Positions 2,712-64,000 of a DNA stretch of 64,000 bases are shown piece by piece; positions within the stretch are counted from its first letter, which is position 1, and each line of letters starts with the position of its first letter. Location of the stretch: positions 64,001-128,000 of IMG/VR virus record IMGVR_UViG_3300042474_001633; one strand, given 5' to 3'. A program made the translations under genes and the position numbers. The stretch comes from a virus. Under the pieces are notes generated by a model that saw only the letters and a program-made list of their open reading frames with translations, had not been told where the DNA came from and did not search any database.

Positions 2712-4213
2712 GCGAAAAAGCAGCAGTCGTAAAGTTGAATGCTGACGGCGAAGTTGTTAGTTGCGCCAAAGGCCTCGGCTCGGATGAGTGTGGATACACG
2801 CCAGGCGCAAAAGTTTGTGGAAAGTGCGGAGCAATGGCTGTCTCTGTAAAGAAGAAAGAAGATGTTGACGTTAAGGCCGCCAAGAAAAACATGCTAAACA
2901 TGGCCGCAATGGATTCTGACCTGGATGAAGAAATGTCCATGGAAGATGAAGAAAAAGATGACGACATGGAAGACATGGAGCTCGTTGATGACGAAGAGGA
3001 CATGGATGAAGAGGACATGGACGACGAAGACGACGAAGACATGGCCGCAGATGACGACGAAGAAGACGAAGACATGGAAGACCTTGACGGCAAAATGTAT
3101 GATGATGAATCAGTAGACGAAATGTTCGTCCGTCGTTCTGCGCCAAAGAAGAAAAAGAAAGGCGCCATGATGATGGGGCCAGACGCTGAAGTAGAACTAG
3201 ACGAAGACGAAAAAGACATGGATGGCATGTACTCAGATGAATCTTCAGTTCGCAAAAAGATGCGCAGACGCAGACTCGGAACAATGGGGTACAAGTCAGC
3301 AGATTTTGACGACAACGCATTCGTTTGTGGATTCGACCGCAAGGTCTACCCAGGCGGCGCAAATGTTTGCGATAGCTGCCCAGGCGGTTGTGTTTCCGAA
3401 AAGGGAATGCCAGCCCTGATTGAAATTGAAGGCATGGCAGAAGACATGTTTAGAGGCAAGGTTCTCGATTCTGGATATTCAGATGAAGCAGACCTGTTTA
3501 TAGTTGATGTTGAGAGAAAAGACGGAAAGCCAGTCGAGGTGTTCTTCGATGGTTCAACCGGCGAAGTCATGGGCTGGCACATGCTCACTCAGGATGTCGT
3601 GCAGGTTAAGTCTGCGCTGCAAAACAAGGTGATGATTAGCTTTGGTGAAGCAGCAGATATTGCTGTTAAATCGGTTGAAGGTGACATCATTGCTGTTGAA
3701 CCAGATGTTTTTGAGGGATTTGATGTTTACGCAGTAGAAATCGAGGGCCTCAATGGCAAGTCGTATGACGTGTTTGTTGGGCTCGATGGTGAAGTGCTTG
3801 GATACGATGAGTATACGCAGGAAGAAGCTTCAGAGATTGAAGCCGAAGCGGCGGAAATTGCGCTGAAGCGTGCCTACTCGGAAGATTCGCGCACATCAAT
3901 GGCTCAAGCCGGGCAGGCACTTGCAGATGGTTCATTCCCAATCAAGGATGAAGCAGACTTGAAGAATGCAATCCAGGCTTACGGTCGCGCAAAAGACAAG
4001 ACAGCAGCAAAAGCTCATATCATGAAGAGAGCTGTTGACCTTGGCATGGAAGAAATGATTCCTTTGAGCTGGGTCTCCAAGGAAGATATGGACAAAGCCA
4101 AAAAGGACTACGCTGCTGAAGAGAAGTCAGAAGTGACGGATTTCTTGTCAAACTTGATGGAATTCGAAATGCTTTCCATCGAAGAGGAAATCAACGAACC
4201 AAAACCTGAATAG
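2708..4213 (+). CDS. head-module protein: Cys clusters, acidic tract, PepSY-like repeats, C-terminal DGSFPI..LKNAI module
   Basis: ATG at 2708 after AAGGAG. ISFGEAADIA..YAVEI..YDVFV..DGEVL fits PepSY. The C-terminal motif is common in phage head proteins. Confidence 0.7.
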   Translation: MSEKAAVVKLNADGEVVSCAKGLGSDECGYTPGAKVCGKCGAMAVSVKKKEDVDVKAAKKNMLNMAAMDSDLDEEMSMEDEEKDDDMEDMELVDDEEDMDEEDMDDEDDEDMAADDDEEDEDMEDLDGKMYDDESVDEMFVRRSAPKKKKKGAMMMGPDAEVELDEDEKDMDGMYSDESSVRKKMRRRRLGTMGYKSADFDDNAFVCGFDRKVYPGGANVCDSCPGGCVSEKGMPALIEIEGMAEDMFRGKVLDSGYSDEADLFIVDVERKDGKPVEVFFDGSTGEVMGWHMLTQDVVQVKSALQNKVMISFGEAADIAVKSVEGDIIAVEPDVFEGFDVYAVEIEGLNGKSYDVFVGLDGEVLGYDEYTQEEASEIEAEAAEIALKRAYSEDSRTSMAQAGQALADGSFPIKDEADLKNAIQAYGRAKDKTAAKAHIMKRAVDLGMEEMIPLSWVSKEDMDKAKKDYAAEEKSEVTDFLSNLMEFEMLSIEEEINEPKPE

Positions 4214-22674: not shown

Positions 22675-25600
22675 ATGGATGATTCCGCAGAAATGCAAAA
22701 CATAGAAGAAAAGGTGATTTTTGGCGCTCGCGTCGTGAATCCATCCGACCCCGACGTGTTTGACAACCCGGATTCGGCCAGAGTTAGAGCAAGACAAATC
22801 GGTTGCATTGGAATCAGAAGATATAACAACCGAAGCGGAGCCGCATCATGGATGCCATGCACAAACGAATCTGACTACAGGAGAGTATCTGGCATCGGCC
22901 ACTCAGGTAGAAGATTTAGAAGACAAGAAATTGAGCGCGAGGTACGCAGGGTAATCGGCGGTCGTGGTGGTCGCAAGGTCGACTCCAAAAGCGCAAACTA
23001 TACAAAACCAGAGGTTCGAGAAACTCTAAAGAAAAGAATTATGGCTGGCTCAAAGGGTGGAAACCCGGGTCAGTGGAGTGCAAGGAAGGCTCAGCTACTT
23101 GCAATCGCATACAGAAAAGCTGGTGGTGGCTACAAGGGTGGAAAGACAAAAAAACAACGTTCACTTTCGAAGTGGACAAAACAAAAGTGGCGCACTTCTG
23201 ACGGCAAACCTGCTCGTCGTGGAAACGTGACGCGACGCTATCTTCCTGCAGCAGCATGGAACCGTCTAACTGTCGGCCAACGAGCCGCAACGAATAGAAA
23301 AAAAATTCAAGGGAGCAGAGAGGGACGTCAGTTCGTTGAAAACACAGAAGCAGCGAAGCGTGCACGCAAGCGTTCGACCCGCGGGCAAAAACACATCGAG
23401 TTTTACGAGGATTTCGAGTTTAAGGCAATCGGCTCACGGATAGGAAAAGTAACAAGACAAAGAAATTTTGGCTCATCCACTGGTGGGCGGGTAGCTAGAA
23501 GAATAGGTGGAAAGCTTCGCGGTGCATTCGCTACCTTCGACCCCAGTGCAAGAGACGCAGATGGAGACAACATCGTCCAGGAAGGAACTATTCAAGAACG
23601 ACGTATTGGTACGAGAATCACCCAGGCTGCACGGAGAGCTGCCGCAAGTACACCAGACAACATTGGAAGAATACGACGTCAACCACAGGTTGATGAAGCA
23701 CGTGCTTTTGGTAGAGCTGAACGACTTGCCGACGGAAGATACGCGACAACGCTTCCTTCTAGTATTGCGCGGACACAGCCTTCACCAAGAAAAATTCGAA
23801 GAGGTTCTACACAGACTAGACGCATCGAAGAGACCAAGCCGAAAAAAATACGTCAGTCAAAGCGCCCAGAGACCAAGCCAACAACGGAAATCCGTGCGGC
23901 AGTGCGTGATGCAAAACCGGAGCCGAAACTATACCCACCTCAGTACGAGCGTGACGCAATTCGAAGCATTAGGGATAGTCGTCCAGAAATATACAGACAG
24001 TTCATCACTGGTGAATCAACTGTTGCCGAAATTGCAGACCGATTTGATGTCGTTAGGGACGAAATACAACAAGCGATTAACCAACATAAAAAGTTAAGAA
24101 AATCGAACCGGAATAAATTCACAAACAACAATCCACGATTAACCAGAGCAATTGAAAAGTTTTCCAACTCCAGAAACGCATTCACGGAAGCAATATCCGA
24201 AGGCAGGTTCCGAGACTGGGACTCCATGGTTCAATACGTTTTTAGAAATCCTGATTCATCAAAAAATCGCGACAATATGGTTCAAGACCTGTTCGACACA
24301 TTCAAGACAGGAAGGAACCCGGACCGCTCAAGCAATATAAGTCTTGGCTATGTGCCAAGTGTTAGAGAAGATGACAAGAGACTTGTAAAAACTTTCTCCG
24401 ACTCACGCAAACCGCGACCAGGATTCCGCGGTCTCGACCAGTTCGAAGTGCAGCCAAAGAGAACTACTTCTGCTGCTTCCTTTGAACAGCGCACTCCGCG
24501 TTCGTACAGAAGAGACGACTTGATTGCAGACGCAATGGCTGGTGGTTACACAATCACCGGCAAGATGTCGGGCTCAATGACGCCAAAACAGGAGCAAGAG
24601 TGGAAAAGGAAAGAATGGAAGCGCCAGCAACTCAAAGGATTTGCCATCGACCCGAATGCTTCTGCGAAATTCCCTTCATTAAACGCAGTTCTTGCTGGCA
24701 GAGACGTAACCAAGTCCATAGAGGCGCTTGATGCTCTTGACGATACCCAATTGGATAATTTATGGACATCGACAATTGGAGATATATCTTCGGTCCCTGG
24801 GATGTCCGTTCCTGCATATCAAGCAAAGAATGCGCCACTGTCCCCGAGGGAGCTTGCTCTTGCCGCATCAGTTAAGAGACCGCTAGTTAAAGCGTTTGTT
24901 GATGAATACAAGAAGTTTAATGCAGGTGGCCTAATTGCCGGCCTGGATATCGATGCAATGAGTGATGCTGATATTCAGTCATTCTTCAATACTTTTGTTT
25001 TGCCAGAGTTAACAAACACAGGCTCGCCTTCTGTGCAGGACGTCGAGCAGGCAGCACAACTTCTTCCAACCCAAGCAAGACTGTCAGATGCAGAAAGACT
25101 ACTAGCGGCGCTACCGTCATCATTTCAAACTCTTGAATACAGAATGAAGGTCGGTCGCAAGGTGCTTGCCGAAGAGGGGTACGACGTTGATACCCCAGAA
25201 TTCGACGCAGCTCTTCAAAGATTCCTCGATGAATCAGAGCAAAAGGACTTAGACAATTTCAACGAACAGCTAACCACTTGGCTCAATGGCGGGAAGCCAG
25301 TAAAAGCAGTTAAGAAAATCCCAATCAATCCGGATACAAACGAACCTTACACAGAACAAGAACTGCGAGACCAGATTGACGCCGTATCCGAGGCAATTGA
25401 AGTAATTCAGGAAAATTTTGACCCTGAAATGTTCAATGAATTGCAGCAGATAAACGGCATAACTTCTCTCCTAAATGAAGCAATGGCTCTTGAGACATTC
25501 CTAAATGACCCTACAAAAGTTCCCGACGAAAGCCTTCTGCCGATAAACACATCAACTGGGAAACCGTATACGTTGCGCGAATGGATTGAGTCTGGGGCAT

Positions 25601-28600
25601 TCAAATTGTTTCGTATGTACGACAACCCAGCTACAAAAAAACCATTCACAGACGCAGAACTTATGGAAGTTCTCTTCAACCTTGCATTACAACGCAGAGA
25701 AATAGAAAACAAGATAGGGCCATCAATCCTTTCCGACTTCAACAAGCTCGAAGCTTTCAACAGAAGGCTGATTAACGCACTAGCTGGTTTAGCAGAAGAA
25801 GACGAAGACGAATTTGAGCTATCGCCCGGAGACCTGCTTGATGGCGAAGAAGAAGAAGGAGAAGAAGGAGGCATGCAGCCAGACCCTCCCTCGATTGAGG
25901 AAATGCAGCAAGCAAACCAAGACATCCTCGACTCCCAGGCGGAGCGCCTACAAAATCGCCCTGAAGTTGGCGATGAGTTCACCAAGGATGATGTGAAAAA
26001 TATACGCGACACAATATCCTCCATCAAGAAAAACCAAGAACCAACCACTGCAGCTCCAGATACTGATGAATACTGGGAAAGATTCGGTCCTTATGATGGC
26101 GACAAAAATCACCCTCTCAACCAGGTAACTGACGCCGAGGGTAAAGAAGTTGGTCTTAATTCAAAAGAATACCAAGTAGATAAAAATTTGTGGAACGAGT
26201 ATCTGGCTGGAAACTATGCACAAGAATGGTCAGACATACACAACAGTCACATAATTGCACGATATACGGACGTGCCGGAAGAACTTAGTCGTTACAACGG
26301 CGAGTTCGAAGAGGGCGCAGACCCAGCGTTGATTGACCCCAATATTCGGTGGGACAAACTAATCGATGTGCTTCAGCAGACAAACCCTGAACTATTCCGC
26401 AAAGACCCGAAAACTGGCGAGGTTGTTGGGGAGACACTCGATAATCTTGCTCAACAACTTGGTCTGCAGAATTATGGTGGGGCATCATTCTCAGCAAGAG
26501 CAGGACGAGTGACTGATGCGTCTGGAGAGATTATTGATACCAGCGGACCGCAATACAGAAGATTGCTTGGTGAACTCGCAAAGGATGAGCGCTTAAAGCA
26601 AAATGAGCAGTATTTGGGTTCTACGAAAGCTGCCGCAAAAGAACGTGCGAAGCTTTGGAACTTATTTGAGGTAGGGACTTTAACACCAGAAGAAATTGCT
26701 TTTCAGGAAGAAATTCGAGACGTAAACACTGTTGTCCAGGCATTGCATATGCACGAGGTTGATAACAGTATACCAAGTGCAAACAGGACCAATCTCGATG
26801 GAGTGGCAAGAACGGCCTTTCAGACAAGAAAAGCGGCATTCGAAAAAGCCAAGACAAAAAAACTAATTGAAGGTATACGCGAAATAGCAAGACTTTCAAA
26901 CCCGAATGTCTCCACTAGGGCTACAGCTAGTGACCTTCAGAACACAATCGATAGGGCAATTACGTATCTTGACGAAACAATAAAGAAGATTGGAATTGAA
27001 TACGACCAGTTCAGAAGAACGAAACAGATGCTTCACGGCATGATTTCTTCCCTACTAAAAACGAGACCGGGATTATTCGAGGTCGACCCCAAAAATCCAA
27101 ATCAACGAAATAGATTCGGCCAGACCGGTTGGAATAGGGCCAAAGAACCGCTCCTTAGGTATATGAACCGCATCTATAAGTGGAACGAAGAAATGTTTGG
27201 CTATGTCGACAGGAGAACAGGCGAGACGAAGCGCGGGCTCTTGCGCATCCTGGTCGAATATGAGCGCTCTCTTGCTCTTCAGACAGGCGACCCGGCTGGT
27301 TCGTCATCTACAACCGCAATTTTTAATCGTGCGCGGCAAAGAAAACAAGAGCTCGAGCGATTCAAGGGAGAATTGCAGTCGCTATCGCAACAGGCGCAAA
27401 GTCAGGGCATTACCGGATTCATGAAGGGTGCTGGGGCGCTTGGACGAGCTGAAGATTCTGCTCGCAGAGGTGCCCGGAGGGCCGCTGAAGGAAGATTCGG
27501 ATTTGCAGACCCTCGAATTCTCAAGAGGTATGACCGCGCGGGATTTGATGTAACCAAGCCAATGCTTGGAAACGCATCGGGGTTTAATAAGCGATTCAAT
27601 CGGGAGATACAAGAGGCAATTCGTAATAACAATAAAAGCATGGAGAGTTCCCCGGCGTTTAATCGGCTTAACCAGAATGAAAAGTCTTACATGAGACTAC
27701 TAGAAGCCGTGAACAATACACCAAGGCTCTTTGGGAATGAAGAAAATCCTGCTCGCTTACGTCAACAAACGGGTCGAGTCGGTCAAACTGGTTTGAACCC
27801 TAGCGTTCGCACACCAAGATATGTAACTCCATACGTAAACAGAAGACCAACAGAATTTTACAAATCCGGCATAACAGGCAGAATGGAAGGCACTTCTCGC
27901 AACGAAAGAATTAAGAATTTTGGCGGCAAAGACAAACTAAAGATTGGTGGATTTCTAGAAGTTGTGCCAGAAGAACTAGAAGACGGTCGCTGGTACATGG
28001 TCAATAGGCATGGTGAAATAATGTCACCAGAGTCTTATACAAACGAAGACGCCGCCTACAAGGCGAGCCTGGCTCTTGGGAGAAAATTTAGAGAACAGCA
28101 ACGTGGCCAAGAGCTTCCACAAAACACAGCTGAGTGGGAAGCTGCGCGTCTTGGACTCAGACAAAGTGGTTATCGAGCTGCCTCGGTTCACCGTCAAAAC
28201 CTTGCAGACATTGCGCCAATCAAGGCTGACGGAACAAAAAACGAATACATATTTGCTGTTGACAAACGCCCCAAGCAAAGGGCTGGAGACGCATTAATTA
28301 TCAGGAAGAACCCATCTACTGGCGCGCTCGAGGCATTGGTCATCGAAAGAGGTTTTGGCCCACATAGAAAAGATGGTGAAGGAACCGTTGCTCTTCCTGG
28401 TGGATTTTTTGACCAAAGCAAGGGAGACGCGGACCTTTTCGATTCAGCTCTACGAGAAGCCCTCGAAGAAACAGGACTTCGTCCGGAAGACCTAATTACT
28501 TCACAGAAGCTGGGAACAATCGATTCCCCAGACTGGGACCCTCGTTTTGCCGAAGGCATAGAAGTTTCTGCAGTTCTCGTGGAAGTTCCATCCACTTGGG

Positions 28601-31600
28601 AACCAACAGCTGGCGATGATGCAGAATCAGCTCGATTCGTTCCACTGGTAGACCTTGCCAGTGGAGATATTCCACTTGGATTCGGACACGCAGCGTGGTT
28701 CGATGCAGCTTTTTCCGCCCATGAGGACCCGGAATTATCGTCCCTGGGAGAAAAATTCTCCCACCTCAACTGGTTGGCAAGACAACGTCAACAGAGAATA
28801 ATACGAGACGCTAACGAATTGCGCGTGGCCTACAACGCCGAAAGACTTGAGCGAGACCTAACTTTATTTGACCAAGAAAATCCACGCCTAAAACTTTTTC
28901 CAACAGAACTTCCAGACACAACAAATGGGGGCTGGAGGCCAACTGGTTCGGAGTTTGATGCAATATCCAAGCCGAGAGTGGCAAGAATCATCAAAGAAGC
29001 ACATGCTCATCTAGACGCTCTGATTAACACAGAGAGAGCCAAGCGTGGATTGCCACCAAAGAGAACCAAGAGAAATCTTCCAGAGATACCGCCTGGGGCA
29101 GTATCTGGTGCGATGCGTGCAGCAATGACCGAAATGGGCCCTGACGAATTTGACAAGGTAAGTCGTCTTGACAACGGAAGAGATAACCCAGCTGCAAGAA
29201 AGTTTATTGATGACGTAATCAACTTGCGTATGGCCGGTATGGATAAATACTCAATCGCTAAATTCATGTCAGATAAAGCAGCGCTTGAATTCGCGATACG
29301 CGACAATGGAAATTCCCCAGAACCAAAAGACCTCATTAGAAGTCATAATTCAAAAGCGGATAGAGGCAGCGAGCTAGCCGGCCTGGCTCCGACAGATGAA
29401 CTTATTTTTAGAATAATCTCTGAAAGAAAACTCAACACAACTGGCAACTCACGAAGCAGGTTCTCCACCGCGGTTCGTGGAGTCGAGCCGCAGGATAAGT
29501 TTACGAAGCAAAGAAACGATGCAGCAAAAGACGTGATGACGCTCGCCCTTGAGGGGATGTCAACAGCAGAGATAGCAGACATCTTGGATATTTCCAAAGG
29601 GAGAGTTGGAAGCACCCTTCGTCGAATGGGCATGCAAGACAGGGATGGCTCTACAACTATTGGTGATATGAGTGATTCAATTCGCCGCTATGAGCAGTCC
29701 CCAAATCAAAAAGCCATGTATGTGGACTCAATGTATAAGCGGATGTCTCTTTCGGAAATATCCAGAAAGTACAAACTTACCGAATCAGAGGTTAGAGAAT
29801 CGGTTGAGTCATACAGGGATAATGTGGAATCGCTGCAGCCGGAACACCACGCCATCTACCGTAAAGCGCTAACCGATATCGAAGCAGATGTACTTTCCCG
29901 AGACGAAGAGCAAATTACAAGAATGAGACTCGATGGCCTTTCGATTTCTGATATATCTGAAGTCACAAAAATGGACAATGGACGAGTAAAGACCATAGAG
30001 CAGCGAGCTCTTTATAAACTTCGCAGAAACAATTCTGATGAATTTATGGGAGTCAAGCGCGACCTCGACGTAATCAACTACAGAAGAACGCCAAGCATGA
30101 ACTACATGGTTGGCGGTATGACCGATATTGAGAGAGATGGCGTCTACTTCAGCGCGAGAGACCTTAGAGACTTCCGAAACAACGACAAAGACATATACAT
30201 AATGAATCAGCATATGGGGTCTTCCGTGAAGGATATTGCCTCAAGATTCAAGATGTCAGAAGATGCTGTGCGCCAATCAATCGAATCCTACTCGTCAGCA
30301 ATTGAAAAAACTGACACATTCAAACACAAAGCTCTTCGGCGCGTTCTCGCGACGAATAATTCCTCCCTTAGTGGCGCGGACATTGACATTATAAACATGC
30401 GTAATGACGGTGCATCAATCGACGATATCGCTAGGTATTTTGAGGTCCCCTCAGAGTCCGTGAGAGCTCGACAGATTGCTGTTATGTCCAAGTTGAACAA
30501 CTCTGATGGAATCAGCGGCGCAATGAAGGGTGTTCCGAATATTGAATCACGCAATTTATACAGAGAGCTTGGTGTTGATGAATCAGCTCCCCAACGCGAG
30601 ATTGACGATGCTTTTACTTCTGAGGTTTCTGGAATCATGTCCAGGGCGATGAAAAATGAACCGAACTCGGTTGACCGCTTGTATACAATCTCGGAGGCCT
30701 ACAAGGTTTTGTCCAACCCTGCAGCCAGAGAGTCGTACGATAACTTCGACTTTGACGACAACGACGACTTTATGGAAATTCCAGAGCTTGATAAGTTGTT
30801 TGACTCTTGGCCAATGTCTCAATATGTTGAGCCATCAACAAATAAGATTCGTCCGCCGTGGGTCGCAGACGCGATACTTGGCGAATACAGACAGTACGAC
30901 AACTTTGTCAAAATGCCGCATCATCTTGGCTCTGATGAAATAACTGATGACATCGACGATGGTTTCTTGGGCTTTAACATAAATGATTCCGATAGAGACC
31001 TGGCGATTAGCGACATGTATTACCGCGAGCCGATTCCTGGAACAAAAGAATGGGATATGGGCCAGCGAGCGGCTGACCGAGCTCGAGCCAGCGGAGACAC
31101 AAGAATAACGTTTGACAAAGACGGATTTATTTCTGGGTCCACTATGAATTTTGACCCAAGATTTGATGACCCTCAGTCTCCGGTTTATATCGGTGATAGA
31201 TACGGCGGCCCCCAAAAAGGAGCACGGCTAGACCAGCCAATGATTTCTGGTGGAATGGATTCTGAGTCAAAAAAAAAATTCAGCAAACTACTCCCTGAAA
31301 GTCTGAGCGAAAGCTCCACTAGATATCCAGGTAATTCCCGTCCGTCCAAAAAGGATATGACGCTCATCAAGACCTCGTCGGATAGGCTCCGAAGTACGGA
31401 AATTCTCCCGATAGCCGAAGTCTTTGACTTTGAATTCAGCGGACCAGATGGCGAGCGTTACGAATCGGGCATCCTGACAATTGCACAAAGACCCGTAGTT
31501 GTCGTCCGTTTTTATGACGATATCAATGTTCCCTTCTACATAAGTTCTGGACGCGGCGGAAAGAAGGATGTCGCTACGGGCAAATGGTATCCATTCTGGG

Positions 31601-57082: not shown

Positions 57083-57117
57083 AAAAAGCCCGCCTGCGGG
57101 GGGCGCAAGCGGGCTTC
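57083..57117 (-). terminator. intrinsic terminator
   Basis: AAGCCCGC/GCGGGCTT stem with a U tract on the minus strand. Confidence 0.75.
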
Positions 57118-57139
57118 TTGTTTTCTTTTGTTGGCTGTT

Positions 57140-57193
57140 TTATGCGACCATTATTGCGAGAAAAATCATGGTACAAACTACGGTATACGACAC
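57140..57193 (-). CDS. 17-aa hydrophobic micropeptide MSYTVVCTMIFLAIMVA
   Basis: Own TTGACA-N17-TACTAT promoter (57252-57224), GGGAG RBS and downstream terminator. Confidence 0.45.
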   Translation of the reverse strand: MSYTVVCTMIFLAIMVA

Positions 57194-57357
57194 GCTAACT
57201 CCCTTCTTGTAGTGGTCAAAACGATAGTAGCCACTTACTTAGTAGTTGTCAAGCATTGACCTTCGTCACAGACACGAACACACAAGTGTGCCAATAGTCA
57301 CAAAAGTATGTTATCGGTATGGTTCCGAGACTTACTCATCCGTATCGGTCTTGGCTG

Positions 57358-57603
57358 TTAGAGCGAGTCTGAACGAGTCAGCACTGTATCGGATGACTCA
57401 CGGGTCAGTTCGTATCCGAGCGAGTAGCAGCGTGAGCAGACATCACTTAAAGCACCTACCAGCGCATCAGTTTTTTCCTCTGTCCATGTTGATTCGGCTG
57501 CTTCGGCTTCGGCTGCCTCCACTAGGGCTATCAGTCGGCTTAGAACAAGTTTGACTTCGCTTGCTCGCTTCGTCAGTTTCGTAATGTCGGTTTTTGTTGT
57601 CAT
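57358..57603 (-). CDS. hypothetical protein (cassette gene)
   Basis: Leaderless TTGACA-N17-TAGTAT-N6-ATG (57638-57610). Confidence 0.7.
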   Translation of the reverse strand: MTTKTDITKLTKRASEVKLVLSRLIALVEAAEAEAAESTWTEEKTDALVGALSDVCSRCYSLGYELTRESSDTVLTRSDSL

Positions 57604-57903
57604 GTGTCAATACTAGGGGCATTTATCGCCCATGTCAAGTTCTAGACTGTGCAGTTAGACACACCCACCTGACCACCCACCCGTCTGACTTGCCGCCATC
57701 GTCACAGAAGCGGACAAGCAAGCAAGTCCCTCGAAGAACTCCTCGAGCTGGCGGCCGGCCCTCGAGAGCTGGTTGTTTTGACGGGGCTCTAACCTGCCAC
57801 GAGACATCTAGTTGCGACGGTGGCGGATGACGGACGTGAACGGGTACAGCAGAAAGCCCCACCTGCCGTTGGGCAAGTAGGGCTTTCTTGGGGGTCGTTG
57901 TGA

Positions 57904-58146
57904 TTATTGTGCTTGCTTTATTGCTTCGGACGCATCAAGAATGGCATTTTCCATTACTTTATGCGTAGCCGTTGCGAACAATTCGGCGAGCGTTGCTGGC
58001 AAAGTGACTAGGTACTTTAGGATTTCTACCTGCTCATCTTTCAGCAATAGTTCTGTAGTGTCGTTGCTAATTTGCTCAAGCATTTCGGCAATAGACATAC
58101 ACTCGTCCGCTATCTCTGTAAGCGTTTCTGCTGGCGTTTGGCTCAT
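57904..58146 (-). CDS. hypothetical protein (cassette gene)
   Basis: TTGACG-N18-TACAAT promoter (58197-58168), GGGGG RBS, terminator at 57853-57885. Confidence 0.7.
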   Translation of the reverse strand: MSQTPAETLTEIADECMSIAEMLEQISNDTTELLLKDEQVEILKYLVTLPATLAELFATATHKVMENAILDASEAIKQAQ

Positions 58147-58207
58147 TTTCCCCCCTTTCTGATACCTATTGTATGGGGCACAAGTACCCCACGTCAAGTT
58201 TATTTCA

Positions 58208-58359
58208 CGTGACATTGGGCACACGCTATTTGTGTCGGGCGTCACACTTGCGTTTGATGTGTCGGCGGTCACGTCCTGCGTGTCGGGCGTCACACAGCCC
58301 TACTATGTGCCGGCAGTCACACTACGTGTCGGGCGTCACACTACGTGTCGGCGGTCACA
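58208..58359. promoter_or_regulatory. tandem array of seven CRP-like YGTGN-N6-TCACR boxes
   Basis: Boxes at 58208, 58231, 58258, 58279, 58306, 58325 and 58344. Confidence 0.65.
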
Positions 58360-58363
58360 CCGG

Positions 58364-58377
58364 CGAACAAGTGTTCG
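58364..58377. promoter_or_regulatory. LexA (SOS) box, Gram-positive/actinobacterial type
   Basis: CGAAC-AAGT-GTTCG. Confidence 0.55.
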
Positions 58378-58811
58378 GTCAGCAGCGAAACCGGAGAAAT
58401 TTTCCGCCGCCGGCTTCCGGTTCGCCTTCGCGGGGACATCGCAATAGCGGGGCTGCGATGTCCCCGACGACTTCTTCTGACGGTGGCGGATGACGAAGGA
58501 ACTGAGTTGCTGAAGCAGTTTTGGATACACGAAGTCGGCTTTGATGTCGGGAAGCAAACATCCAAGTCAGGTTGTTGGAAACTTTCTTGACAAACCGCAT
58601 CTCACTTGCTAACACGGAACGTGCGAGGAACTCTGATGGCGTCAAACACGAGAGTCCCGCCAAAACCAGAACCAAACCAAAAACCACGAGTGGCTGGGTG
58701 TTCTTGGGCAACAAAAAACCCGCCCTTTTGGGCGGGCTAGTTGATTTTTACCCTGCTAGTAGAACTAAAAGGCAAAAAAAGATTACATAAGTTGTGGCTT
58801 GGGACAAAACA

Positions 58812-58925
58812 TCACCCCCAATTCTCCTTTTTCCATTTTTCCCACTCTTGTTGCTTTCGCTCTATGTAGTCACCGAGCGGTATTGCGATAAGAATTGAGA
58901 CGGCGATTATTTGATGTATCTTCAC
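58812..58925 (-). CDS. 37-aa membrane-anchored micropeptide (cassette gene)
   Basis: TTGACT-N17-TACTCT promoter (58983-58955), GGGGGTG RBS, terminator at 58713-58737. Confidence 0.5.
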   Translation of the reverse strand: MKIHQIIAVSILIAIPLGDYIERKQQEWEKWKKENWG

Positions 58926-59308
58926 TTCACCCCCTTTACTTTTCTATTTAGTAAAGAGTAGTAAGTGGTACGCAGATAGTCAAGCACTCACACGCACTTC
59001 TGTCAAGTTACTACCAAAGTCATGCGTCACAGGCTTTGACCACCAAGAAAGTTGACAACAGGTCGGGTCTAGCCGTTCATGTGTTCGCAATTGACGACAT
59101 CACGAGTTCTTCGCCTGGGACTGAGGACACCCCCGTTTGGTAGCGGGGCTGCCAGACGGGGGTCATCTTCTACCGACGGTGGGGCATGAGTCCCTTCCGT
59201 TCGACCTGATGAACACCTGTGGGCGAACACCTGTTTGTTCCAACCGATGTGACGAACTTCATGCCGTACAAGTTGCTTTTTGTCCCATCTACGGGCTAGC
59301 GTGTTGCT

Positions 59309-59926
59309 ATGGCAACACGCCACCTTACACACGACACCGAGACGGCTGTTTTAGAAGTCGCCAAGGACTTTTGGCTTCGTGAGGTCGTGCCCGTGACCGT
59401 ACCGAACGCCTGCATACTGGCTTCTCGTATTCTCACGGTTGCCCTAAACAAGTACGGGGTCGCTGCTAACGCAACCCAACTTGACGCTGTCTGCTGGAAC
59501 GATGAGGGCTACCGCCTACGCAATGACGTAGTTGCTTCCCGAGAGAGCAAGACCGCTTGGTCAGTAGGCGTAATGTCTAAACCGAGTGACCAATGGATTA
59601 CCAATGAGATTGCTTCGGGTCGTAATCCATTTGAGCGAGATTTCTTTGGACACCTTGTAGTGGAGACTGAGCACCACTTCATTGACTTCACTGCTGGTCA
59701 ATTTGACCGCCCTCAACACGGCATCGTGACTGGTTCACCCCTCATCGTGCCCAACTCCCATCTCGTAGAGACAAAAGACGGGTGGAAAGTACCGATTATC
59801 AAGGGCGTCTACACGATTCGTGACGCCAAGTACCCTGCCTCACCACGCAATGCACCCGACTGGCACACGAACTACAAGCGTGATGCCAAGCGACTGATTG
59901 ACGAACTACGCCCATTGTTGGGCTAG
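59309..59926 (+). CDS. hypothetical protein with C..H..D pattern (inverted cassette)
   Basis: NACILASR..GHLVV..IDFTAGQF, a transglutaminase-like triad pattern; TAGCGT-N6-ATG leaderless start. Confidence 0.7.
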   Translation: MATRHLTHDTETAVLEVAKDFWLREVVPVTVPNACILASRILTVALNKYGVAANATQLDAVCWNDEGYRLRNDVVASRESKTAWSVGVMSKPSDQWITNEIASGRNPFERDFFGHLVVETEHHFIDFTAGQFDRPQHGIVTGSPLIVPNSHLVETKDGWKVPIIKGVYTIRDAKYPASPRNAPDWHTNYKRDAKRLIDELRPLLG

Positions 59927-60206
59927 TTCCTCGCTTTTCCCCTTCCGTCTGGCTGATGTCGCGCGCCTACGCTTTGCCGCCGCAACAGCGTGAGAGGAAA
60001 CTAATACGATTTTCTCTCATGGCTTCTTCGGGTGCGGGGCTGTCATGTCTTTCCAGAGTTCTTCTTACGACGGTGGCGGATGAACGGGAATAGCAAAACG
60101 GGCAGACACACTCGCAGTGAGTGCGCCTGCCCGTTAGTCGGGGGTTCGCTGTGTGGTTACTGGCTAAGTATCAGTGCGATAACAAACACGACGATTGCCG
60201 TCGCTA

Positions 60207-60620
60207 TCACTCCGAGTCTTCGTCTAGTGCGTAACGAACGGTGTAGCCACGCCCCATTGGGACATCGTGGTGCGCTAAGTTCAGGTGCAACACTTCTCCC
60301 GATAGTTGCCAGCGCAGACGCCAAGTGTCGTTGACTGTGACCGCACGGATGAAGTCGGGAATGGTTTCCGCTGTGAACTCTCCCGATACCGAACGATTCC
60401 ATAGTGGCAGTCCGTCAATCGTGAAGTTGCAGGTCGGGTTGGCGTCGTACCATCCCTTTATTCCTTCTGTGAAGTGAAAAACGGCAGTCTCCCAGCAATC
60501 GCCATAGCAATAGTCTGCAGGCTCATCCGTGTACTCTTCCCTTATCGGGTCATACTTCATGCAGTCGCAACTGTTTTGGATTACTCCATCCCAGTCACTC
60601 TGTGTTTTGGTTGTTGTCAT
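60207..60620 (-). CDS. hypothetical protein (cassette gene)
   Basis: TTGACA-N17-TATTCT-N6-ATG (60655-60627); terminator at 60095-60135. Confidence 0.75.
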   Translation of the reverse strand: MTTTKTQSDWDGVIQNSCDCMKYDPIREEYTDEPADYCYGDCWETAVFHFTEGIKGWYDANPTCNFTIDGLPLWNRSVSGEFTAETIPDFIRAVTVNDTWRLRWQLSGEVLHLNLAHHDVPMGRGYTVRYALDEDSE

Positions 60621-60928
60621 GCGCTAAGAATAAGACATAAGTAGTACTTTGTCAAGTCATGTCGTGCGTGCTTGTGGTCACGCTTGAGGTTCGGCCGGCA
60701 GTTGGTGTCGCCCCAGCCGGCAACCGGACTCTCAGTCGCACGCCGGCTCTCCGGACGCGGGGGCAAGCTGCGGGGCTGTCAAGTCCGACGGCATCTTCTA
60801 CCTTCTGACGGTGGCGTATGAGCCGACACGAGCAACAACGGCGAACGGGTACGAACGACAACGGGCGCACCTACCGAATTGGTAGATGCGCCCGTGTTGG
60901 GGGTTGGTTTGGGGATTTGGCTAGTGCA

Positions 60929-61300
60929 TTACTTCCAAGTAGATAGGTCAAGCACCACTTCTGCGAGTTGGTCGCAGTAGATGTGCGACTGTTCCGCTTC
61001 TACGACTTCCGTGTGTGCCATTTTCCCTGTTTGTATGTAGCGGATACGCTTGACTATGTAGGTGTCTGAATAATCAAGCACCACTTCTATGCGTCGGGTT
61101 GAGGTAATCGGCAGGATTACGCCGACTGTCTCGCCTTCCTTATCTTCTAGGCAAGCCATACGCCCGCCCGATACGGCAAGCACTACCATTTTCCCGATTT
61201 GGTTCATTACTTCGCTAGTGTCGCACGGTCGCCCGTCACGCACTATGCCTATTAGGTGACAAGACGAACTGCCCTTGCCCCATTTGAGTGTGTTTGTCAT
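60929..61300 (-). CDS. hypothetical protein (cassette gene)
   Basis: TTGACA-N17-TACGAT-N6-ATG (61335-61307); hairpin at 60860-60898. Confidence 0.75.
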   Translation of the reverse strand: MTNTLKWGKGSSSCHLIGIVRDGRPCDTSEVMNQIGKMVVLAVSGGRMACLEDKEGETVGVILPITSTRRIEVVLDYSDTYIVKRIRYIQTGKMAHTEVVEAEQSHIYCDQLAEVVLDLSTWK

Positions 61301-61562
61301 AGTTCTATCGTAGGGCAGTTGTGGGTCTTTGTCAAGTTTCTAATCTGTGGTTGTGGTCACGGCGCAGGTTTCTGCTCTCAGGTTGCGAGGTTCTCCGCCG
61401 CTGCCGCCAGACGGCGACTGGGACTGGGGGCGTTGGCTAGCGGGGCTGGCGAACGCCCCCAGAGTTCTTCTTACGACGGTGGCGTATGAGTTGCGTGAAT
61501 ACACAAAAAAACCGCCTAGCCATTACGACTAGACGGTCTTTCGGAGGGTGGTTATTCGTTGG

Positions 61563-61775
61563 TCAGTTGCTCACTTCCCAAACTCCTTCTGCTTCATTTA
61601 GAACATTTTCCTCAATGTTCCATTCGCTTTCTTCCCAACGGATTTCTTCTTTCATAATCAGTGCGATTTTGTCTGTAAACTCTCGCATAATCGCTTCCGC
61701 TTGTTCTTTGCTATCCGCTTTTATTTCCGTGATAGCGATAGACAAGTCTGTTGAGTAGTACTTTTCTACGCTCAT
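61563..61775 (-). CDS. hypothetical protein (cassette gene)
   Basis: GGGGG RBS; terminator near 61505-61541. Confidence 0.65.
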   Translation of the reverse strand: MSVEKYYSTDLSIAITEIKADSKEQAEAIMREFTDKIALIMKEEIRWEESEWNIEENVLNEAEGVWEVSN

Positions 61776-61792
61776 TTCCCCCCTTTCTTTTA

Positions 61793-61978
61793 CTAGTTTT
61801 TAGGACAGTCCTCGTATGGGTTTTCATTACCCTCGTTATCCTCGCACGGACACCAACCGAATAGTCCTACTTGTGTTTCGTGCGTGAGTTCGGCTAAGTC
61901 TCCCCAAGACGGCGAGCCACCGAGTTGGTCTATGACCAAACTCCAATAGTCCACGAATAGTTTTTCTTTTCCGTTCAC
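61793..61978 (-). CDS. hypothetical protein (cassette gene)
   Basis: TTGACT-N17-TAAAAT-N7-GTG (62014-61986). Confidence 0.65.
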   Translation of the reverse strand: MNGKEKLFVDYWSLVIDQLGGSPSWGDLAELTHETQVGLFGWCPCEDNEGNENPYEDCPKN

Positions 61979-62405
61979 TATTGTTATTTTAGGACATAAG
62001 TATCCCTAAGTCAAGTTTTGTGGCAACAGTCACATTACATTCCTCGGCGCAGCGAACCTCAATAAGTATGAGAGAGAGGAAGTTATGCCAACGGACGACA
62101 ACCGAACATACGAACAGATAGCAACCGAGACTTGCGAGTTGATTTGCGCTCTACAAGACGCTGTTGGGGTTCTTTTCCCTTGGCGTATGTATGACTGCGA
62201 CAAGATAACTGTATCCAACGACACCATCAAGTTGCTTCTCGAAGCCATCAAGGACTGAACCTGCTCGACCGGACATCCGGTTTTGTAATCCAGCGGGGCT
62301 GGCAAGTCCCTGCCTGAGTTCTTCTTTTGACGGTGGCGGATGACGGGCAAAAAAATAAGGGGCGCACCTGCCTTTCAGCAAGTGCGCCCCTTTGGGGGTT
62401 GGCTA

Positions 62406-62798
62406 TCAGTAAGCGAGTGTGCGAGTGAGCAAATCTTTTACTAGGGCGTTGTTATCAACCCAGTGGTCAATGTTGCGAACTACCTGAGCCTCAAACTCGG
62501 CAAACGACTTATCGCCATAGCGCCCAACTGGGTTGGTGTGGATTACCTGCGCTGGATACTCAGGGTTGAATACCTCAAACGCAGTGACGGTGAACCCTAC
62601 GCTCGGTTGCCATACGACACGGCGTATCGTTGCTTCGTACTGCTTGCGCTTGGAGTTGTGGCTGAACTCAAGTTCTACCTGCTCACCCCATAGGTCTGTC
62701 TCGCCCATGCGCTGAATGTTCAGGTCTTGCGACTGCCAGACATAAGTAACCTTTCGGTCACGCTCTTGGCGCTTCGCTCGTGGGAATACTGTAATCAC
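62406..62798 (-). CDS. hypothetical protein (cassette gene)
   Basis: TTGACA-N18-TACACT (62856-62827), AAGGAG RBS, terminator at 62349-62393. Confidence 0.75.
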   Translation of the reverse strand: MITVFPRAKRQERDRKVTYVWQSQDLNIQRMGETDLWGEQVELEFSHNSKRKQYEATIRRVVWQPSVGFTVTAFEVFNPEYPAQVIHTNPVGRYGDKSFAEFEAQVVRNIDHWVDNNALVKDLLTRTLAY

Positions 62799-63062
62799 TT
62801 GCTCTCCTTTTCTAGTAGGTGAGGTAAGTGTACCTGCTATGGCATACGACTGTCAAGTTGTTGCGCTGGTCGTGCGTCACACACGGCTGGCGAGGCGAGT
62901 TGGCTGCGAAGGTCGCACCTGACGACGGCTGCGGCGACGGGGACATCACTCGGCGGCCCCGCGCCCGCCGACCAACCCGCGTTCTTCTTCTACCCGACGG
63001 TGGTGGATGAATAGAAAAAGCCCCCACCCACATTTCTGCGGATGGGGGCTAGTTCGTGGGGA

Positions 63063-63473
63063 TTACTTTGTAGCGAACGCACCTTCGTATCGGTGTTCAC
63101 CAATAAAAGAGATGGCTTTGTCGCCCTCTATCTTGTAAGCGAAGATGGCTTTGTCGCCAAGTACATAGACATACTCTGCCCATGCGAACTCGGTGTCACT
63201 CTGCGTGAACCACTTTACTGATGTTATGTCGTTGTGTGCTTCGCCATACCCTTCCACTACCTTCCACTCGGTTTCACGAGTTTCGTAGTTCGGGTCAATG
63301 ACAGACCATGAAAGGTTGTCGTGGAGAAGTGTCTGTCGGACTTTCTCTACGCCGTCACGGATTACGAGTTCCGTGAGTTGGGGTATCTTGACTGATGGGT
63401 AGCCATCCCAATGAGAGTAGCGACCACGCCACCCATCACCGAACGGTTCAGCGATAATGCTACGAGTTGCCAT
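63063..63473 (-). CDS. conserved phage hypothetical (MATRS..Y.HWDGYP family)
   Basis: YSHWDGYPS and AEYVY motifs; terminator at 63015-63050. Confidence 0.75.
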   Translation of the reverse strand: MATRSIIAEPFGDGWRGRYSHWDGYPSVKIPQLTELVIRDGVEKVRQTLLHDNLSWSVIDPNYETRETEWKVVEGYGEAHNDITSVKWFTQSDTEFAWAEYVYVLGDKAIFAYKIEGDKAISFIGEHRYEGAFATK

Positions 63474-63609: not shown

Positions 63610-63826
63610 TTGTTACCACCTTGTCTGATGATGTGTCCCATACGGACACGGGGATTTCTTCGTAACTGTCCAAGCCCTCAATGAGCGAGAGAGTAGAACC
63701 GCAGTCCCAAGTGACTGATAAGACGGTTGCGCCCCAAAAGTCCACAGATTTATTGGTGACAGTTCCCTCGTCGCCCGCTTTCAGGCGGGTGTACGGGTCA
63801 TCCGTTGAGATTAGACGAATACGCAT
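63596..63826 (-). CDS. DUF4314-like protein
   Basis: RIRL...DPY..L..GDEGTV...V.WD.GS.LSLI.G.D. Confidence 0.75.
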   Translation of the reverse strand: MRIRLISTDDPYTRLKAGDEGTVTNKSVDFWGATVLSVTWDCGSTLSLIEGLDSYEEIPVSVWDTSSDKVVTNGNS

Positions 63827-63999
63827 CACAGACCTTTGAGAAGTTCTGCTGGCTTTACGCCTACGGCTTCACACAAACGGAACAAGGTGTCAAGGTTTGG
63901 TGCGAAGTGTCCGTTCTCAATGCGGTTCACGGTCTTGCGGTCAATGCCTGACGCTTTTGCGAGTTCCTCTTGCGTTAGTTCGTTTTCCAGTCGCAGTTC
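63826..63999 (-). CDS. XRE/Cro-family HTH regulator, 5'-partial
   Basis: Hand translation: LTQEELAKASGIDRKTVNRIENGHFAPNLDTL. Confidence 0.85.
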   Translation of the reverse strand, partial: ELRLENELTQEELAKASGIDRKTVNRIENGHFAPNLDTLFRLCEAVGVKPAELLKGL

Positions 64000-64000
64000 G

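What the first reader, a model, noticed from the sequence alone, without database searches (positions are those of the whole stretch)
57083..63473. Cassette array: promoter-gene-terminator units separated by a conserved polar repeat every 660-900 bp
Seen: eight same-strand copies of GACGGTGG(C/G/T)G(G/T/C)ATGA, usually preceded by TTCTTC and CGGGGCT, spaced 663, 696, 894, 738, 668, 854 and 667 nt apart. Each interval holds one small unrelated gene (two in one case) with its own promoter. On the minus strand a hairpin terminator comes before the repeat, 5-40 nt before it in most units. The repeat is always intergenic, between one unit's terminator and the next unit's promoter. Known analogues: T4-type PeSL elements (modular shuffling) and the oriented GGTGG-containing stoperators of mycobacteriophage L5. 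Inference: either a recombination/capture site for shuffling early host-takeover genes, or an oriented protein-binding signal. No integrase is visible in this window.
Basis: partly seen in the sequence, partly recalled or inferred. Interest (0 to 1): 0.8.

Follow-up and report, generated by a model that had tools for sequence, protein, structure and literature searches.

The report
Strand-fixed boundary motif in phage early region
A 15-base motif sits between almost every early gene of a 160-kb uncultured lake phage of actinobacteria and its many relatives. It always lies on the same DNA strand whichever way the neighbouring genes point, so it acts on the DNA itself rather than as a promoter, terminator or classical operator.

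Summary
The 8 copies in the window are part of 19 copies spread over 20 kb of the 160-kb phage genome, all on one strand and none elsewhere.

At least 50 related IMG/VR contigs carry the same arrays. Across 80 loci oriented on one conserved gene, I counted 350 copies on that gene's strand and 0 on the other.

The core, "Box 1", reads TC[A/T]TNC[R]CCACCGT[C/T] on the window's minus strand. About 96% of copies are intergenic. All 19 sit at the same positions in a relative with about 80% identity.

Box 1 orientation does not follow transcription. Seven copies lie among plus-strand genes, and a whole operon is inverted in relatives while Box 1 stays put. This rules out membership of L5-type stoperators and argues against a promoter.

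A second box, AGCCCCG, lies about 25 nt downstream. It often sits in the loop of a hairpin whose stem sequence varies, and it accompanies only copies whose flanking genes are co-oriented.

Edges of homology between relatives pile up at Box 1, and one relative has gained a unit there. The arrays are otherwise stable, and the genome has no detectable recombinase.

Best reading, confidence about 0.4: a strand-specific protein recognition site that marks unit boundaries and acts as a one-way barrier, or possibly as a nick site. A conserved small protein with a helicase-associated (HA) domain and a sigma-region-4-type HTH is bracketed by sites and is a weak candidate binder. I found no description of this motif in the literature I could search.

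The parts
57816..57830 (-). Box 1 copy r1 (TCATCCGCCACCGTC on the minus strand)
58479..58493 (-). Box 1 copy r2
59175..59189 (-). Box 1 copy r3 (TCATGCCCCACCGTC). It lies 120 nt upstream of plus-strand gene 59309-59926.
60069..60083 (-). Box 1 copy r4
60807..60821 (-). Box 1 copy r5
61475..61489 (-). Box 1 copy r6
62329..62343 (-). Box 1 copy r7
62996..63010 (-). Box 1 copy r8 (TCATCCACCACCGTC). Its Box 2 is replaced by an inverted GCGGGGC inside a hairpin.
57782..57788 (-). Box 2 (AGCCCCG) of r1
58448..58454 (-). Box 2 of r2, in the loop of a 12-bp perfect hairpin
59144..59150 (-). Box 2 of r3, in the loop of an 8-bp hairpin
60035..60041 (-). Box 2 of r4
60771..60777 (-). Box 2 of r5
61441..61447 (-). 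Box 2 of r6, in the loop of an 11-bp hairpin
62294..62300 (-). Box 2 of r7
63019..63050 (-). Intrinsic terminator of gene 63063-63473, ending 9 nt before r8
62357..62392 (-). Intrinsic terminator of gene 62406-62798, just before r7
61506..61542 (-). Intrinsic terminator of gene 61563-61775, just before r6
60097..60135 (-). Intrinsic terminator of gene 60207-60620, just before r4
57858..57877 (-). Terminator of gene 57904-58146, just before r1
62827..62856 (-). Sigma-70-type promoter (TTGACA, 18 nt, TACACT) of gene 62406-62798
61986..62014 (-). Promoter (TTGACT, 17 nt, TAAAAT) of genes 61793-61978 and 61563-61775
61307..61335 (-). Promoter (TTGACA, 17 nt, TACGAT). The ATG lies 6 nt after the -10 element, so the mRNA of gene 60929-61300 is probably leaderless.
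60627..60655 (-). Promoter (TTGACA, 17 nt, TATTCT), with a probably leaderless start of gene 60207-60620
58168..58197 (-). Promoter (TTGACG, 18 nt, TACAAT) of gene 57904-58146
57610..57638 (-). Promoter (TTGACA, 17 nt, TAGTAT), with a probably leaderless start of gene 57358-57603
63826..64000 (-). XRE-type HTH gene (92 aa, runs past the window end). It is conserved in distant arrays but its orientation relative to Box 1 varies.

Best explanation
Box 1, about 15-17 bp and reading TC[A/T]TNC[R]CCACCGT[C/T] plus a following purine, is a strand-specific recognition site for a sequence-specific protein that acts on the DNA, not on a transcript. One copy sits at nearly every boundary between early transcription units. 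Its polarity is fixed relative to the chromosome, not to the flanking genes.

I infer that it works as a one-way boundary. It would block machines moving in the direction in which the motif reads TCAT...GTC (leftward in the window), most plausibly RNA polymerase that has read through a terminator or is making antisense RNA. Traffic in the opposite direction would pass. The block would be either a protein bound as an asymmetric monomer or a nick that such a protein leaves in one strand.

A candidate binder is the conserved 129-aa early protein at genome 136219-136608. It has two predicted nucleic-acid-binding modules: a helicase-associated (HA) domain and a sigma-region-4-type HTH.

Box 2 and its optional hairpin are a separate accessory found at units transcribed in the motif's own direction. 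Unit gain and replacement at Box 1 are by-products of having about 20 direct repeats in a recombination-active phage.

Shown: the motif, its strand exclusivity, its intergenic placement, its conservation, its independence from gene direction, and its linkage to the HA-sigma4 gene. Inferred: protein binding, the barrier or nick mechanism, and the identity of the binder.
For: Strand exclusivity:
- 19 of 19 copies in the genome lie on one strand.
- Five related records have 54 copies, all in one orientation per record, with 0 hits to the reversed control pattern.
- In 80 loci oriented on the HA-sigma4 gene, the count is 350 to 0.

Independence from transcription:
- Seven copies lie among plus-strand genes.
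- The flanking-gene contexts include tandem in either direction, convergent and divergent arrangements.
- The five-gene XRE operon is inverted relative to Box 1 in L072. XRE is also anti-oriented in G001, L111 and L034/L056, while Box 1 orientation is unchanged.

Placement and conservation:
- 179 of 187 copies are intergenic by my gene calls.
- In co-oriented units Box 1 follows the terminator; the median distance from gene end is 78 nt.
- All 19 positions are kept in a relative with about 80% identity. Identity is 0.92 in Box 1, 0.75-0.78 in genes and 0.58-0.68 in the linker.
- Homologous positions are kept in the distant 170-kb relative G001.

The motif has invariant and freely varying positions, as expected for a protein site.

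Candidate binder:
- Pfam HA scores 53 bits and Sigma70_r4 25.9 bits, both above their cut-offs.
- The model shows two folded domains joined by a linker, mean pLDDT 84.5.
- The recognition helix LSRQR[VI]HQI is invariant across the family.
- In 22 of 52 loci a site lies within 50 nt after the gene's end, and in 30 of 52 a site lies 56-150 nt before its start.

Precedents: monomeric two-domain repressors on asymmetric sites (PMC9283540), and one-strand-only nick motifs in phages with convergent genes (PMC3517423).
Against: No binding, nick or transcript data exist; everything about mechanism is inference.

Thirteen to fifteen of the 80 loci carry the HA-sigma4 gene with the same recognition helix but no Box 1 within 10 kb. 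That protein therefore does not need Box 1.

A one-way block to leftward traffic has no obvious use at copies inside rightward operons, or in G001, where most array genes run rightward.

Foldseek gave no significant whole-protein match; the best E-value was 0.066.

Contig ends are not enriched at Box 1, with 0 of 48 within 100 nt, so double-strand breaks there are unlikely. This says nothing about nicks.

The restriction to a 20-kb region and to intergenic DNA is not a known property of T5/tf-type nick sites.
Confidence: 0.4

Rival explanations
1. Site-specific nick sites, like the localized single-strand interruptions of T5, phiKMV and tf. A phage nickase would cut one strand at Box 1 in packaged DNA. 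The nicks would be sealed early in infection and would stimulate recombination nearby.
For: The known signature of such sites is a 9-19 nt asymmetric consensus found on one strand only, even when genes converge, with an uneven distribution (PMC3517423). Box 1 shares all of this. Homology edges fall at the Box 1 edge, and the least conserved linker lies on one side of it.
Against: No nickase has been identified. The sites are confined to 20 kb and to intergenic DNA, which is not reported for tf or T5. Contig ends are not enriched at the sites. Physical nicks cannot be tested here.
Confidence: 0.15
2. A recombination linker whose main function is cassette exchange. This would resemble T4 PeSL modular shuffling or Botstein-type linkers: homologous exchange between direct Box 1 modules swaps, deletes or duplicates early genes.
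For: The architecture resembles PeSL hyperplastic regions, with ORFan genes, strong sigma-70-type promoters and stem-loop terminators (PMC2839356). Of homology-block (HSP) starts, 11 of 115 fall within 3 nt of the Box 1 start; of HSP ends, 19 of 147 fall at the Box 1 end. About 1% would be expected for each. L065, L042 and L029 have an extra 667-bp unit between two copies. L121 has a replacement starting 2 nt after Box 1.
Against: All 19 positions, and almost all gene content, are the same at about 80% identity. Copies are also kept between conserved core genes (the CobS/T-like pair and HA-sigma4) in very distant relatives. About 90% of breakpoints lie elsewhere, mainly at promoters 100-150 nt downstream. 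Exchange between direct repeats cannot explain the inverted XRE operon. No recombinase was found. Any conserved repeat would show some exchange.
Confidence: 0.15
3. A Chi-like signal read by a host helicase-nuclease (RecBCD or AdnAB). This would protect the early region from degradation from one end and stimulate recombination to one side.
For: The plus-strand core GACGGTGG resembles E. coli Chi, GCTGGTGG (my own knowledge). The polarity is uniform. The variable linker and the homology edges lie on the 5' side of GACGGTGG, where Chi stimulates exchange.
Against: A 15-17 nt conserved site is much longer than any known Chi, and strict intergenic placement is not expected. In an Acidimicrobiia MAG that contains a related phage contig, the 8-mer occurs 184 times against 132 for the reversed control. 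In small actinobacterial genomes the 11-mer is present 0-3 times. It is enriched only in large high-GC genomes, where codon use (ACG GTG GCG) is a likely cause. The host is not identified, and the contig ends are arbitrary.
Confidence: 0.07
4. A promoter for a phage-specific transcription machine, such as a virion-delivered or early RNA polymerase or a sigma-like factor, starting at the purine after Box 1.
For: The layout recalls single-subunit RNA polymerase promoters: a conserved 15-mer, then a purine, then a purine-rich tract. Giant head-module proteins could hide an unrecognisable polymerase (compare PMC10770324).
Against: A quarter to a third of copies would drive antisense transcription. 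One copy sits between convergent genes, 2 nt after a stop codon. No PF00940 or sigma region 2 match was found in the genome, although the PF00940 control rang nowhere. Every unit already has a near-consensus host-type promoter.
Confidence: 0.07
5. An RNA-level element, for example a nut-like boxA/boxB pair, a processing site or a small RNA. Box 1 would be the linear part and the Box 2 hairpin the structured part.
For: Box 2 sits in the loop of 8-15 bp hairpins whose stem sequences differ completely between copies, in about 28 copies, against a shuffled control that rarely exceeds 6 bp. Box 2 goes with co-oriented genes: 57 to 15, against 18 to 29 for copies with Box 1 only.
Against: Box 1 lies just after strong terminators, so it should be little transcribed. 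The hairpin is absent in most copies. There is no G-U versus A-C asymmetry to indicate a transcribed strand. No Rfam family matches. Box 1 keeps its strand where genes are reversed.
Confidence: 0.06

Closest known systems
Stoperators and operators of cluster A mycobacteriophages (L5, TipsytheTRex)
   Same: There are more than 20 copies of a 13-15 bp asymmetric site containing GGTGG in an actinophage. The sites lie in short intergenic spaces and next to promoters. The known binder is a monomer with two DNA-binding domains (PMC9283540). Here a two-domain HTH protein is encoded among the sites.
   Different: Stoperator orientation follows the direction of transcription, and reversing a site abolishes its function. 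Here the orientation is chromosome-fixed and ignores gene direction. This phage has no detectable integrase, and the candidate protein belongs to another family (HA + sigma-4).
Localized single-strand interruption (nick) sites of T5, phiKMV-like phages and tf
   Same: A short asymmetric consensus is found on one strand only, although the genome has opposed transcription units. The distribution is uneven. The biological role is unknown (PMC3517423).
   Different: Nicks have not been demonstrated here. The sites are confined to a 20-kb early region, are almost always intergenic, and occur about one per transcription unit.
PeSL regulatory cassettes of T4-type hyperplastic regions
   Same: The region consists of small ORFan early genes, each with a strong sigma-70-type promoter and a stem-loop terminator. 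Some indels between relatives are bounded by the conserved intergenic module (PMC2839356, PMC4122927).
   Different: A PeSL is itself the promoter plus terminator and so points with transcription. Box 1 is neither promoter nor terminator, and it keeps one strand where genes are reversed. Mini-circles were not tested.
Integron attC cassette arrays
   Same: One polar site per gene unit, uniform orientation along the array, gene direction free within a unit, and an optional hairpin with a variable stem.
   Different: There is no integrase. The units have their own promoters and terminators. Box 1 is a conserved linear sequence, not an imperfect inverted repeat with R''/R' cores.
Polar replication or transcription barriers (Tus-Ter, RTP-Ter, the rDNA fork barrier)
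   Same: Asymmetric protein sites that block traffic from one side only. In rDNA there is one per unit, just after the terminator, and the barrier also provokes unit gain and loss.
   Different: No contrahelicase homologue is known here. The comparison rests on my own knowledge and on position only.

Membership tests
L5-type stoperators | Many copies of a short asymmetric site in intergenic spaces and at promoters | tested here: met
   19 copies in the genome. 179 of 187 copies across relatives are intergenic. Some copies abut a -35 element.
L5-type stoperators | Site orientation correlates with the direction of transcription (PMC9283540) | tested here: not met
   The strand is the same among minus- and plus-strand genes. 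An operon is inverted in relatives without any change in the site. The count relative to a fixed gene is 350 to 0.
L5-type stoperators | A cognate immunity repressor of a temperate phage | tested here: inconclusive
   No tyrosine or serine integrase was found. Two-domain HTH proteins exist, but I made no sequence comparison with gp71.
PeSL cassettes (T4-type) | A strong sigma-70-like early promoter plus a stem-loop terminator, repeated in a region of ORFan genes | tested here: met
   Seven promoters scoring 10 of 12 and strong terminators. The genes have no Pfam hits.
PeSL cassettes (T4-type) | The conserved repeat is the promoter-terminator module itself | tested here: not met
   Box 1 lies between the terminator and the next promoter, about 130 nt from the -35 element, and it also occurs without either.
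PeSL cassettes (T4-type) | Indels and replacements between close relatives are bounded by the repeats | tested here: inconclusive
   Edges are enriched about 10-fold at Box 1, and there is one unit gain and one replacement. Most edges lie elsewhere, and the arrays are stable.
PeSL cassettes (T4-type) | Excised mini-circles | not testable with these tools
   This needs reads or PCR on phage DNA.
Integron | An adjacent IntI tyrosine recombinase | tested here: not met
   PF00589 has no match in the whole genome, and the control rang in 14 of 14 genomes.
Integron | attC sites: imperfect inverted repeats that fold; promoterless cassettes | tested here: not met
   Box 1 is not palindromic. The hairpin is present in only about 30% of copies that have Box 2. 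Every unit has its own promoter.
Localized nick sites (T5/phiKMV/tf) | An asymmetric consensus present on one strand only, irrespective of gene direction | tested here: met
   compare PMC3517423.
Localized nick sites (T5/phiKMV/tf) | Physical single-strand interruptions in virion DNA | not testable with these tools
   This needs virion DNA. Contig ends are not enriched at the sites, which says nothing about nicks.
Chi sites | Over-represented in the host genome | tested here: inconclusive
   184 against 132 for the control in one Acidimicrobiia MAG. The 11-mer is rare in small actinobacterial genomes. The host is not identified.
Phage RNA polymerase promoters | Downstream genes are co-oriented with the promoter, and a phage polymerase is present | tested here: not met
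   Many copies face away from the next gene. There is no PF00940 or sigma region 2 match, but the PF00940 control was silent, so absence of the enzyme is not shown.

The most novel reading that the evidence does not exclude
Box 1 may be part of an undescribed chromosome-polar punctuation system in large actinophages. The traffic could be transcription, replication or DNA entry. As a side effect the signs would make that region a hotspot of unit turnover.
Probability: 0.3. Interest if true: 0.8.

Novelty: new variant of a known kind. Interest (0 to 1): 0.62.

Why it matters
Dispersed asymmetric sites are known in phages as stoperators and as nick sites. The function of nick sites has been unexplained since the 1960s, and stoperators are tied to the direction of transcription.

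Here a site of the same general kind is found with perfect strand exclusivity (350 to 0) in a widespread, uncultured clade of lake actinophages. It occurs once per early transcription unit and is demonstrably uncoupled from gene direction.

That gives a clean natural system for asking what a chromosome-fixed polar signal does in a virus. It also offers testable partners: the HA-sigma4 protein, XRE and WhiB. If the sites are nicks or one-way barriers, they would link genome punctuation, early gene insulation and modular gene turnover.

Tried and rejected
- **Known RNA families.** An Rfam scan of the window and L001 found only two tRNAs.
- **Conserved peptide or stop codon.** In 29% of copies the TGA of the motif reads AGA instead, so it is not a conserved stop.
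- **Sigma-70 or ECF-type promoter in either orientation.** There is no conserved hexamer at the required spacing on either side of Box 1; information content is below 0.25 bit outside the motif and the purine tract.
- **The four tandem sigma-4-like HTH domains of the 3915-aa head protein as binder.** No homologue was found in G001 or G002, which do have Box 1.
- **Phylogenetic profile to pick the binder.** XRE and the 154-aa and 367-aa proteins are present only in loci with Box 1, but the loci without Box 1 form a separate clade, so this is confounded.
- **RNA strand from G-U pairs in Box 2 stems.** No signal.
- **Genome termini as the reference for polarity.** The ends of G000 are contiguous in G001, so they are arbitrary, and there are no terminal repeats.
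- **Contig ends at Box 1.** Not enriched.
- **Cultured relatives.** No nucleotide or HA-sigma4 protein match among GenBank phages.
- **Host identification through the RNR gene.** This found only two phage-like contigs inside MAGs.
- **Literature.** The motif strings, stoperators, nick sites, PeSL and freshwater actinophages gave no description of this motif.

Full report
**1.

The pattern GACGGTGGNGNATGA has exactly eight plus-strand matches in the window, at the stated positions. Chance expectation is 0.09, and the spacings are as stated.

The window is bases 64,001-128,000 of a single 160,282-bp phage contig. Across the whole genome there are 19 copies, all on the plus strand, between 121,816 and 141,476. 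There are none elsewhere.

The phage has an HK97-type capsid protein, a class II ribonucleotide reductase, a primase-helicase and an SNF2 helicase. It also has a WhiB gene and an HA-domain protein, which point to an actinobacterial host.

**2. Anatomy of a unit**

Read on the minus strand, a typical unit in the window has these parts in order:
- a near-consensus promoter (TTGACA, 17 nt, TAnnnT), in three cases with the ATG 6 nt after the -10 element, so the mRNA is probably leaderless;
- one small gene with no known family;
- a strong intrinsic terminator;
- 9-28 nt later, Box 1 (TC[A/T]TNC[R]CCACCGT[C/T]);
- a purine and a purine-rich tract;
- Box 2 (AGCCCCG) 20-30 nt after Box 1;
- a GC-rich linker of about 100 nt;
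- the next promoter.

This rests.

Box 2 follows Box 1 in 97 of 156 distinct copies and never precedes it. In about 28 copies Box 2 forms the loop of a perfect 8-15 bp hairpin whose stem sequence differs from copy to copy. Shuffled flanks rarely exceed 6 bp. The stems give no G-U versus A-C asymmetry that would name a transcribed strand.

**3. It is a family trait**

An exact-match scan of IMG/VR followed by a degenerate scan found arrays in at least 30 related contigs, with up to 13 copies per locus.

Whole-record scans gave these counts:

| Record | Copies |
|---|---|
| G004 | 20 |
| G005 | 19 |
| G001 (complete 170-kb relative) | 7 |
| G002 | 7 |

Within each record all copies share one orientation, and the reversed control pattern had no hit.

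All 19 copies of this genome align with copies in G005, which is about 80% identical. Identity is 0.92 within Box 1 and 0.84 at Box 2, against 0.75-0.78 in genes and 0.58-0.68 in the linker. Differences between orthologous copies fall on the three degenerate positions.

**4. Polarity is tied to the chromosome, not to genes**

This is the key result.
- From about genome 132.4 kb the genes run on the plus strand, yet seven copies there keep the same strand.
- Across relatives, copies occur between tandem genes of either direction, between convergent genes and between divergent genes. By my crude gene calls, 179 of 187 are intergenic.
- One copy lies 2 nt after a stop codon between convergent genes.
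- The five-gene operon containing XRE is co-oriented with the motif here. It is inverted relative to the motif in L072, and XRE is also anti-oriented in G001, L111 and L034/L056. Box 1 orientation is unchanged in all of these.
- Box 2 does follow gene direction. Copies with Box 2 are flanked by co-oriented genes 57 to 15, against 18 to 29 for copies with Box 1 alone.

**5. What this excludes**

A promoter in either orientation is unlikely:
- Many copies would drive antisense RNA.
- No conserved hexamer lies at promoter spacing.
- I found no single-subunit polymerase or sigma region 2. The polymerase control was silent, so absence of that enzyme is not proven.

Membership of L5-type stoperators fails on their defining property, orientation coupled to transcription (PMC9283540).

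An integron-like system fails because there is no integrase, every unit has its own promoter, and there is no attC-type repeat.

A Chi-like reading is weak. The site is too long and is strictly intergenic. The core is not clearly over-represented in the actinobacterial genomes I sampled. The sample includes four unpublished genomes (G008, G025, G055, G075), and the conclusion does not depend on them. The host is not identified.

**6. Recombination**

Among all pairwise alignments of array loci, 11 of 115 block starts fall within 3 nt of the Box 1 start, and 19 of 147 block ends fall at its end. About 1% would be expected for each.

Most other starts fall 100-150 nt downstream, at the promoter. 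Blocks therefore typically run from promoter through gene and terminator to Box 1 or Box 2, with the linker least conserved.

L065, L042 and L029 carry an extra 667-bp unit between two copies. L121 has a replacement beginning 2 nt after a copy.

So exchange does occur at the motif. But the arrays are positionally stable, copies are retained between conserved core genes in very distant relatives, and direct-repeat exchange cannot explain the inverted operon. I read the turnover as a consequence of the repeats, not as their purpose.

**7. A candidate reader**

Several genes are conserved across distant arrays: XRE, a CobS/CobT-like pair, and a 129-aa protein at genome 136219-136608.

The 129-aa protein has an HA domain (53 bits) and a sigma-70 region 4 HTH (25.9 bits), both above the Pfam cut-offs. 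The model shows two folded domains joined by a linker, with mean pLDDT 84.5. Fold matches to sigma-4, LuxR and resolvase HTHs are weak, with E-values of 0.07 or higher.

Its recognition helix LSRQR[VI]HQI is invariant in 80 IMG/VR loci. In those loci every strict Box 1 copy (350) lies on the gene's strand. A site lies within 50 nt after the gene's end in 22 of 52 loci, and 56-150 nt before its start in 30 of 52.

A two-domain monomer would fit a bipartite asymmetric site, and the plus-strand reading (T)TGACGG resembles a -35 element. Against this, 13-15 loci have the gene with the same helix but no Box 1 within 10 kb. The link is a lead, not a finding.

The four sigma-4-like HTHs in the 3915-aa head protein have no detectable counterpart in G001 or G002.

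**8. Best reading**

Box 1 is a strand-specific protein recognition site that punctuates early transcription units and acts on the DNA with chromosome-fixed polarity.

The known systems that behave this way are one-strand nick sites (tf, T5, phiKMV, PMC3517423) and polar barriers. In units transcribed in the motif's direction, Box 1 sits exactly where a back-up stop after the terminator would be. It also sits directly after the stop codon of the HA-sigma4 gene, which faces a convergent operon.

I therefore favour a one-way boundary, made either by a bound protein or by a nick in the template strand. Confidence is about 0.4 for the DNA-level polar site and lower for the specific mechanism.

**9. 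Novelty**

I found no description of this motif or of these phages' early-region architecture in the searchable literature. No cultured relative exists among GenBank phages.

It is a new variant of known kinds of dispersed asymmetric phage sites. It is distinguished by perfect strand exclusivity that is demonstrably uncoupled from gene direction, and by its one-per-unit placement.

Noticed in passing
window 22675-34422: The 3915-aa head-module protein carries four tandem sigma-70 region-4-type HTH domains (genome 93527-94471). It also has Zeta-toxin/AAA_33, NUDIX and DnaJ domains. If it is packaged and injected, the phage may deliver sigma-4 mimics together with its DNA.
   Followed up: partly
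window 58228-58360: Five to six iterons of about 16-20 bp (GTGTGACGCCCGACAC and variants) lie just upstream of the promoter at 58197-58168. Single GTGAC boxes lie about 20 nt upstream of several other -35 elements. These are candidate operator or origin repeats, better suited to a dimeric XRE protein than Box 1 is.
   Followed up: no
window 57610-57603, 60627-60620, 61307-61300: In three units the ATG lies exactly 6 nt after the -10 hexamer. The mRNAs are therefore probably leaderless, as is common in actinobacteria. Other units have clear GGAGG-type ribosome sites.
   Followed up: no
genome 121000-142000 (window 57000 onward and L001): The 150 nt on the low-coordinate side of each Box 1 are 10-15-fold enriched in CTCGAG, GCCGGC and CGGCCG. 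The rest of the array has half the 6-bp palindrome density of the genome (5.9 against 11.7 per kb). In at least one case the palindromes lie inside the 3' end of a coding gene.
   Followed up: partly
L001 14498-14821 (genome 142498-142821), L001 17047-17568, L001 15553-16758: A WhiB-family gene, a MarR-like winged-helix gene and a 401-aa metallophosphoesterase sit just beyond the high-coordinate end of the array. WhiB proteins bind sigma region 4, which is notable in a phage that has several sigma-4-like proteins.
   Followed up: no
genome about 142.2-144.1 kb (L001 about 14200-16100): The ends of 21 of 28 related IMG/VR contigs map into this 1.9-kb zone, about 1-3 kb beyond the last Box 1. 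About 5 would be expected if the ends were spread evenly over 10 kb. This could be a hypervariable spot that breaks assemblies, or a real packaging or terminus region.
   Followed up: partly
genome about 131,966-132,010 (L001 about 3966-4010): Three tandem copies of CGAGATTTAGT(A/G) lie in the divergent intergenic region where gene direction switches. This is a possible origin or operator.
   Followed up: no
L124, L125 (genome contigs): The only two genome-collection matches to the phage RNR (75-77% identity) are short or phage-like contigs binned into an Acidimicrobiia MAG and a Bacteroidia MAG. These are probably phage contamination of the bins and are not reliable host evidence.
   Followed up: no
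L148, L155, L156, L204 (IMG/VR loci with the HA-sigma4 gene but no Box 1): These more distant phages carry other same-strand repeats, such as ATTATTGCCTGTAAGG (9 copies), CATTATGACCGATAGA (10 copies) and GGTAGTAGGTAC (7 copies). At least some of these are conserved promoter-leader modules. They might be analogous punctuation with a different sequence.
   Followed up: partly
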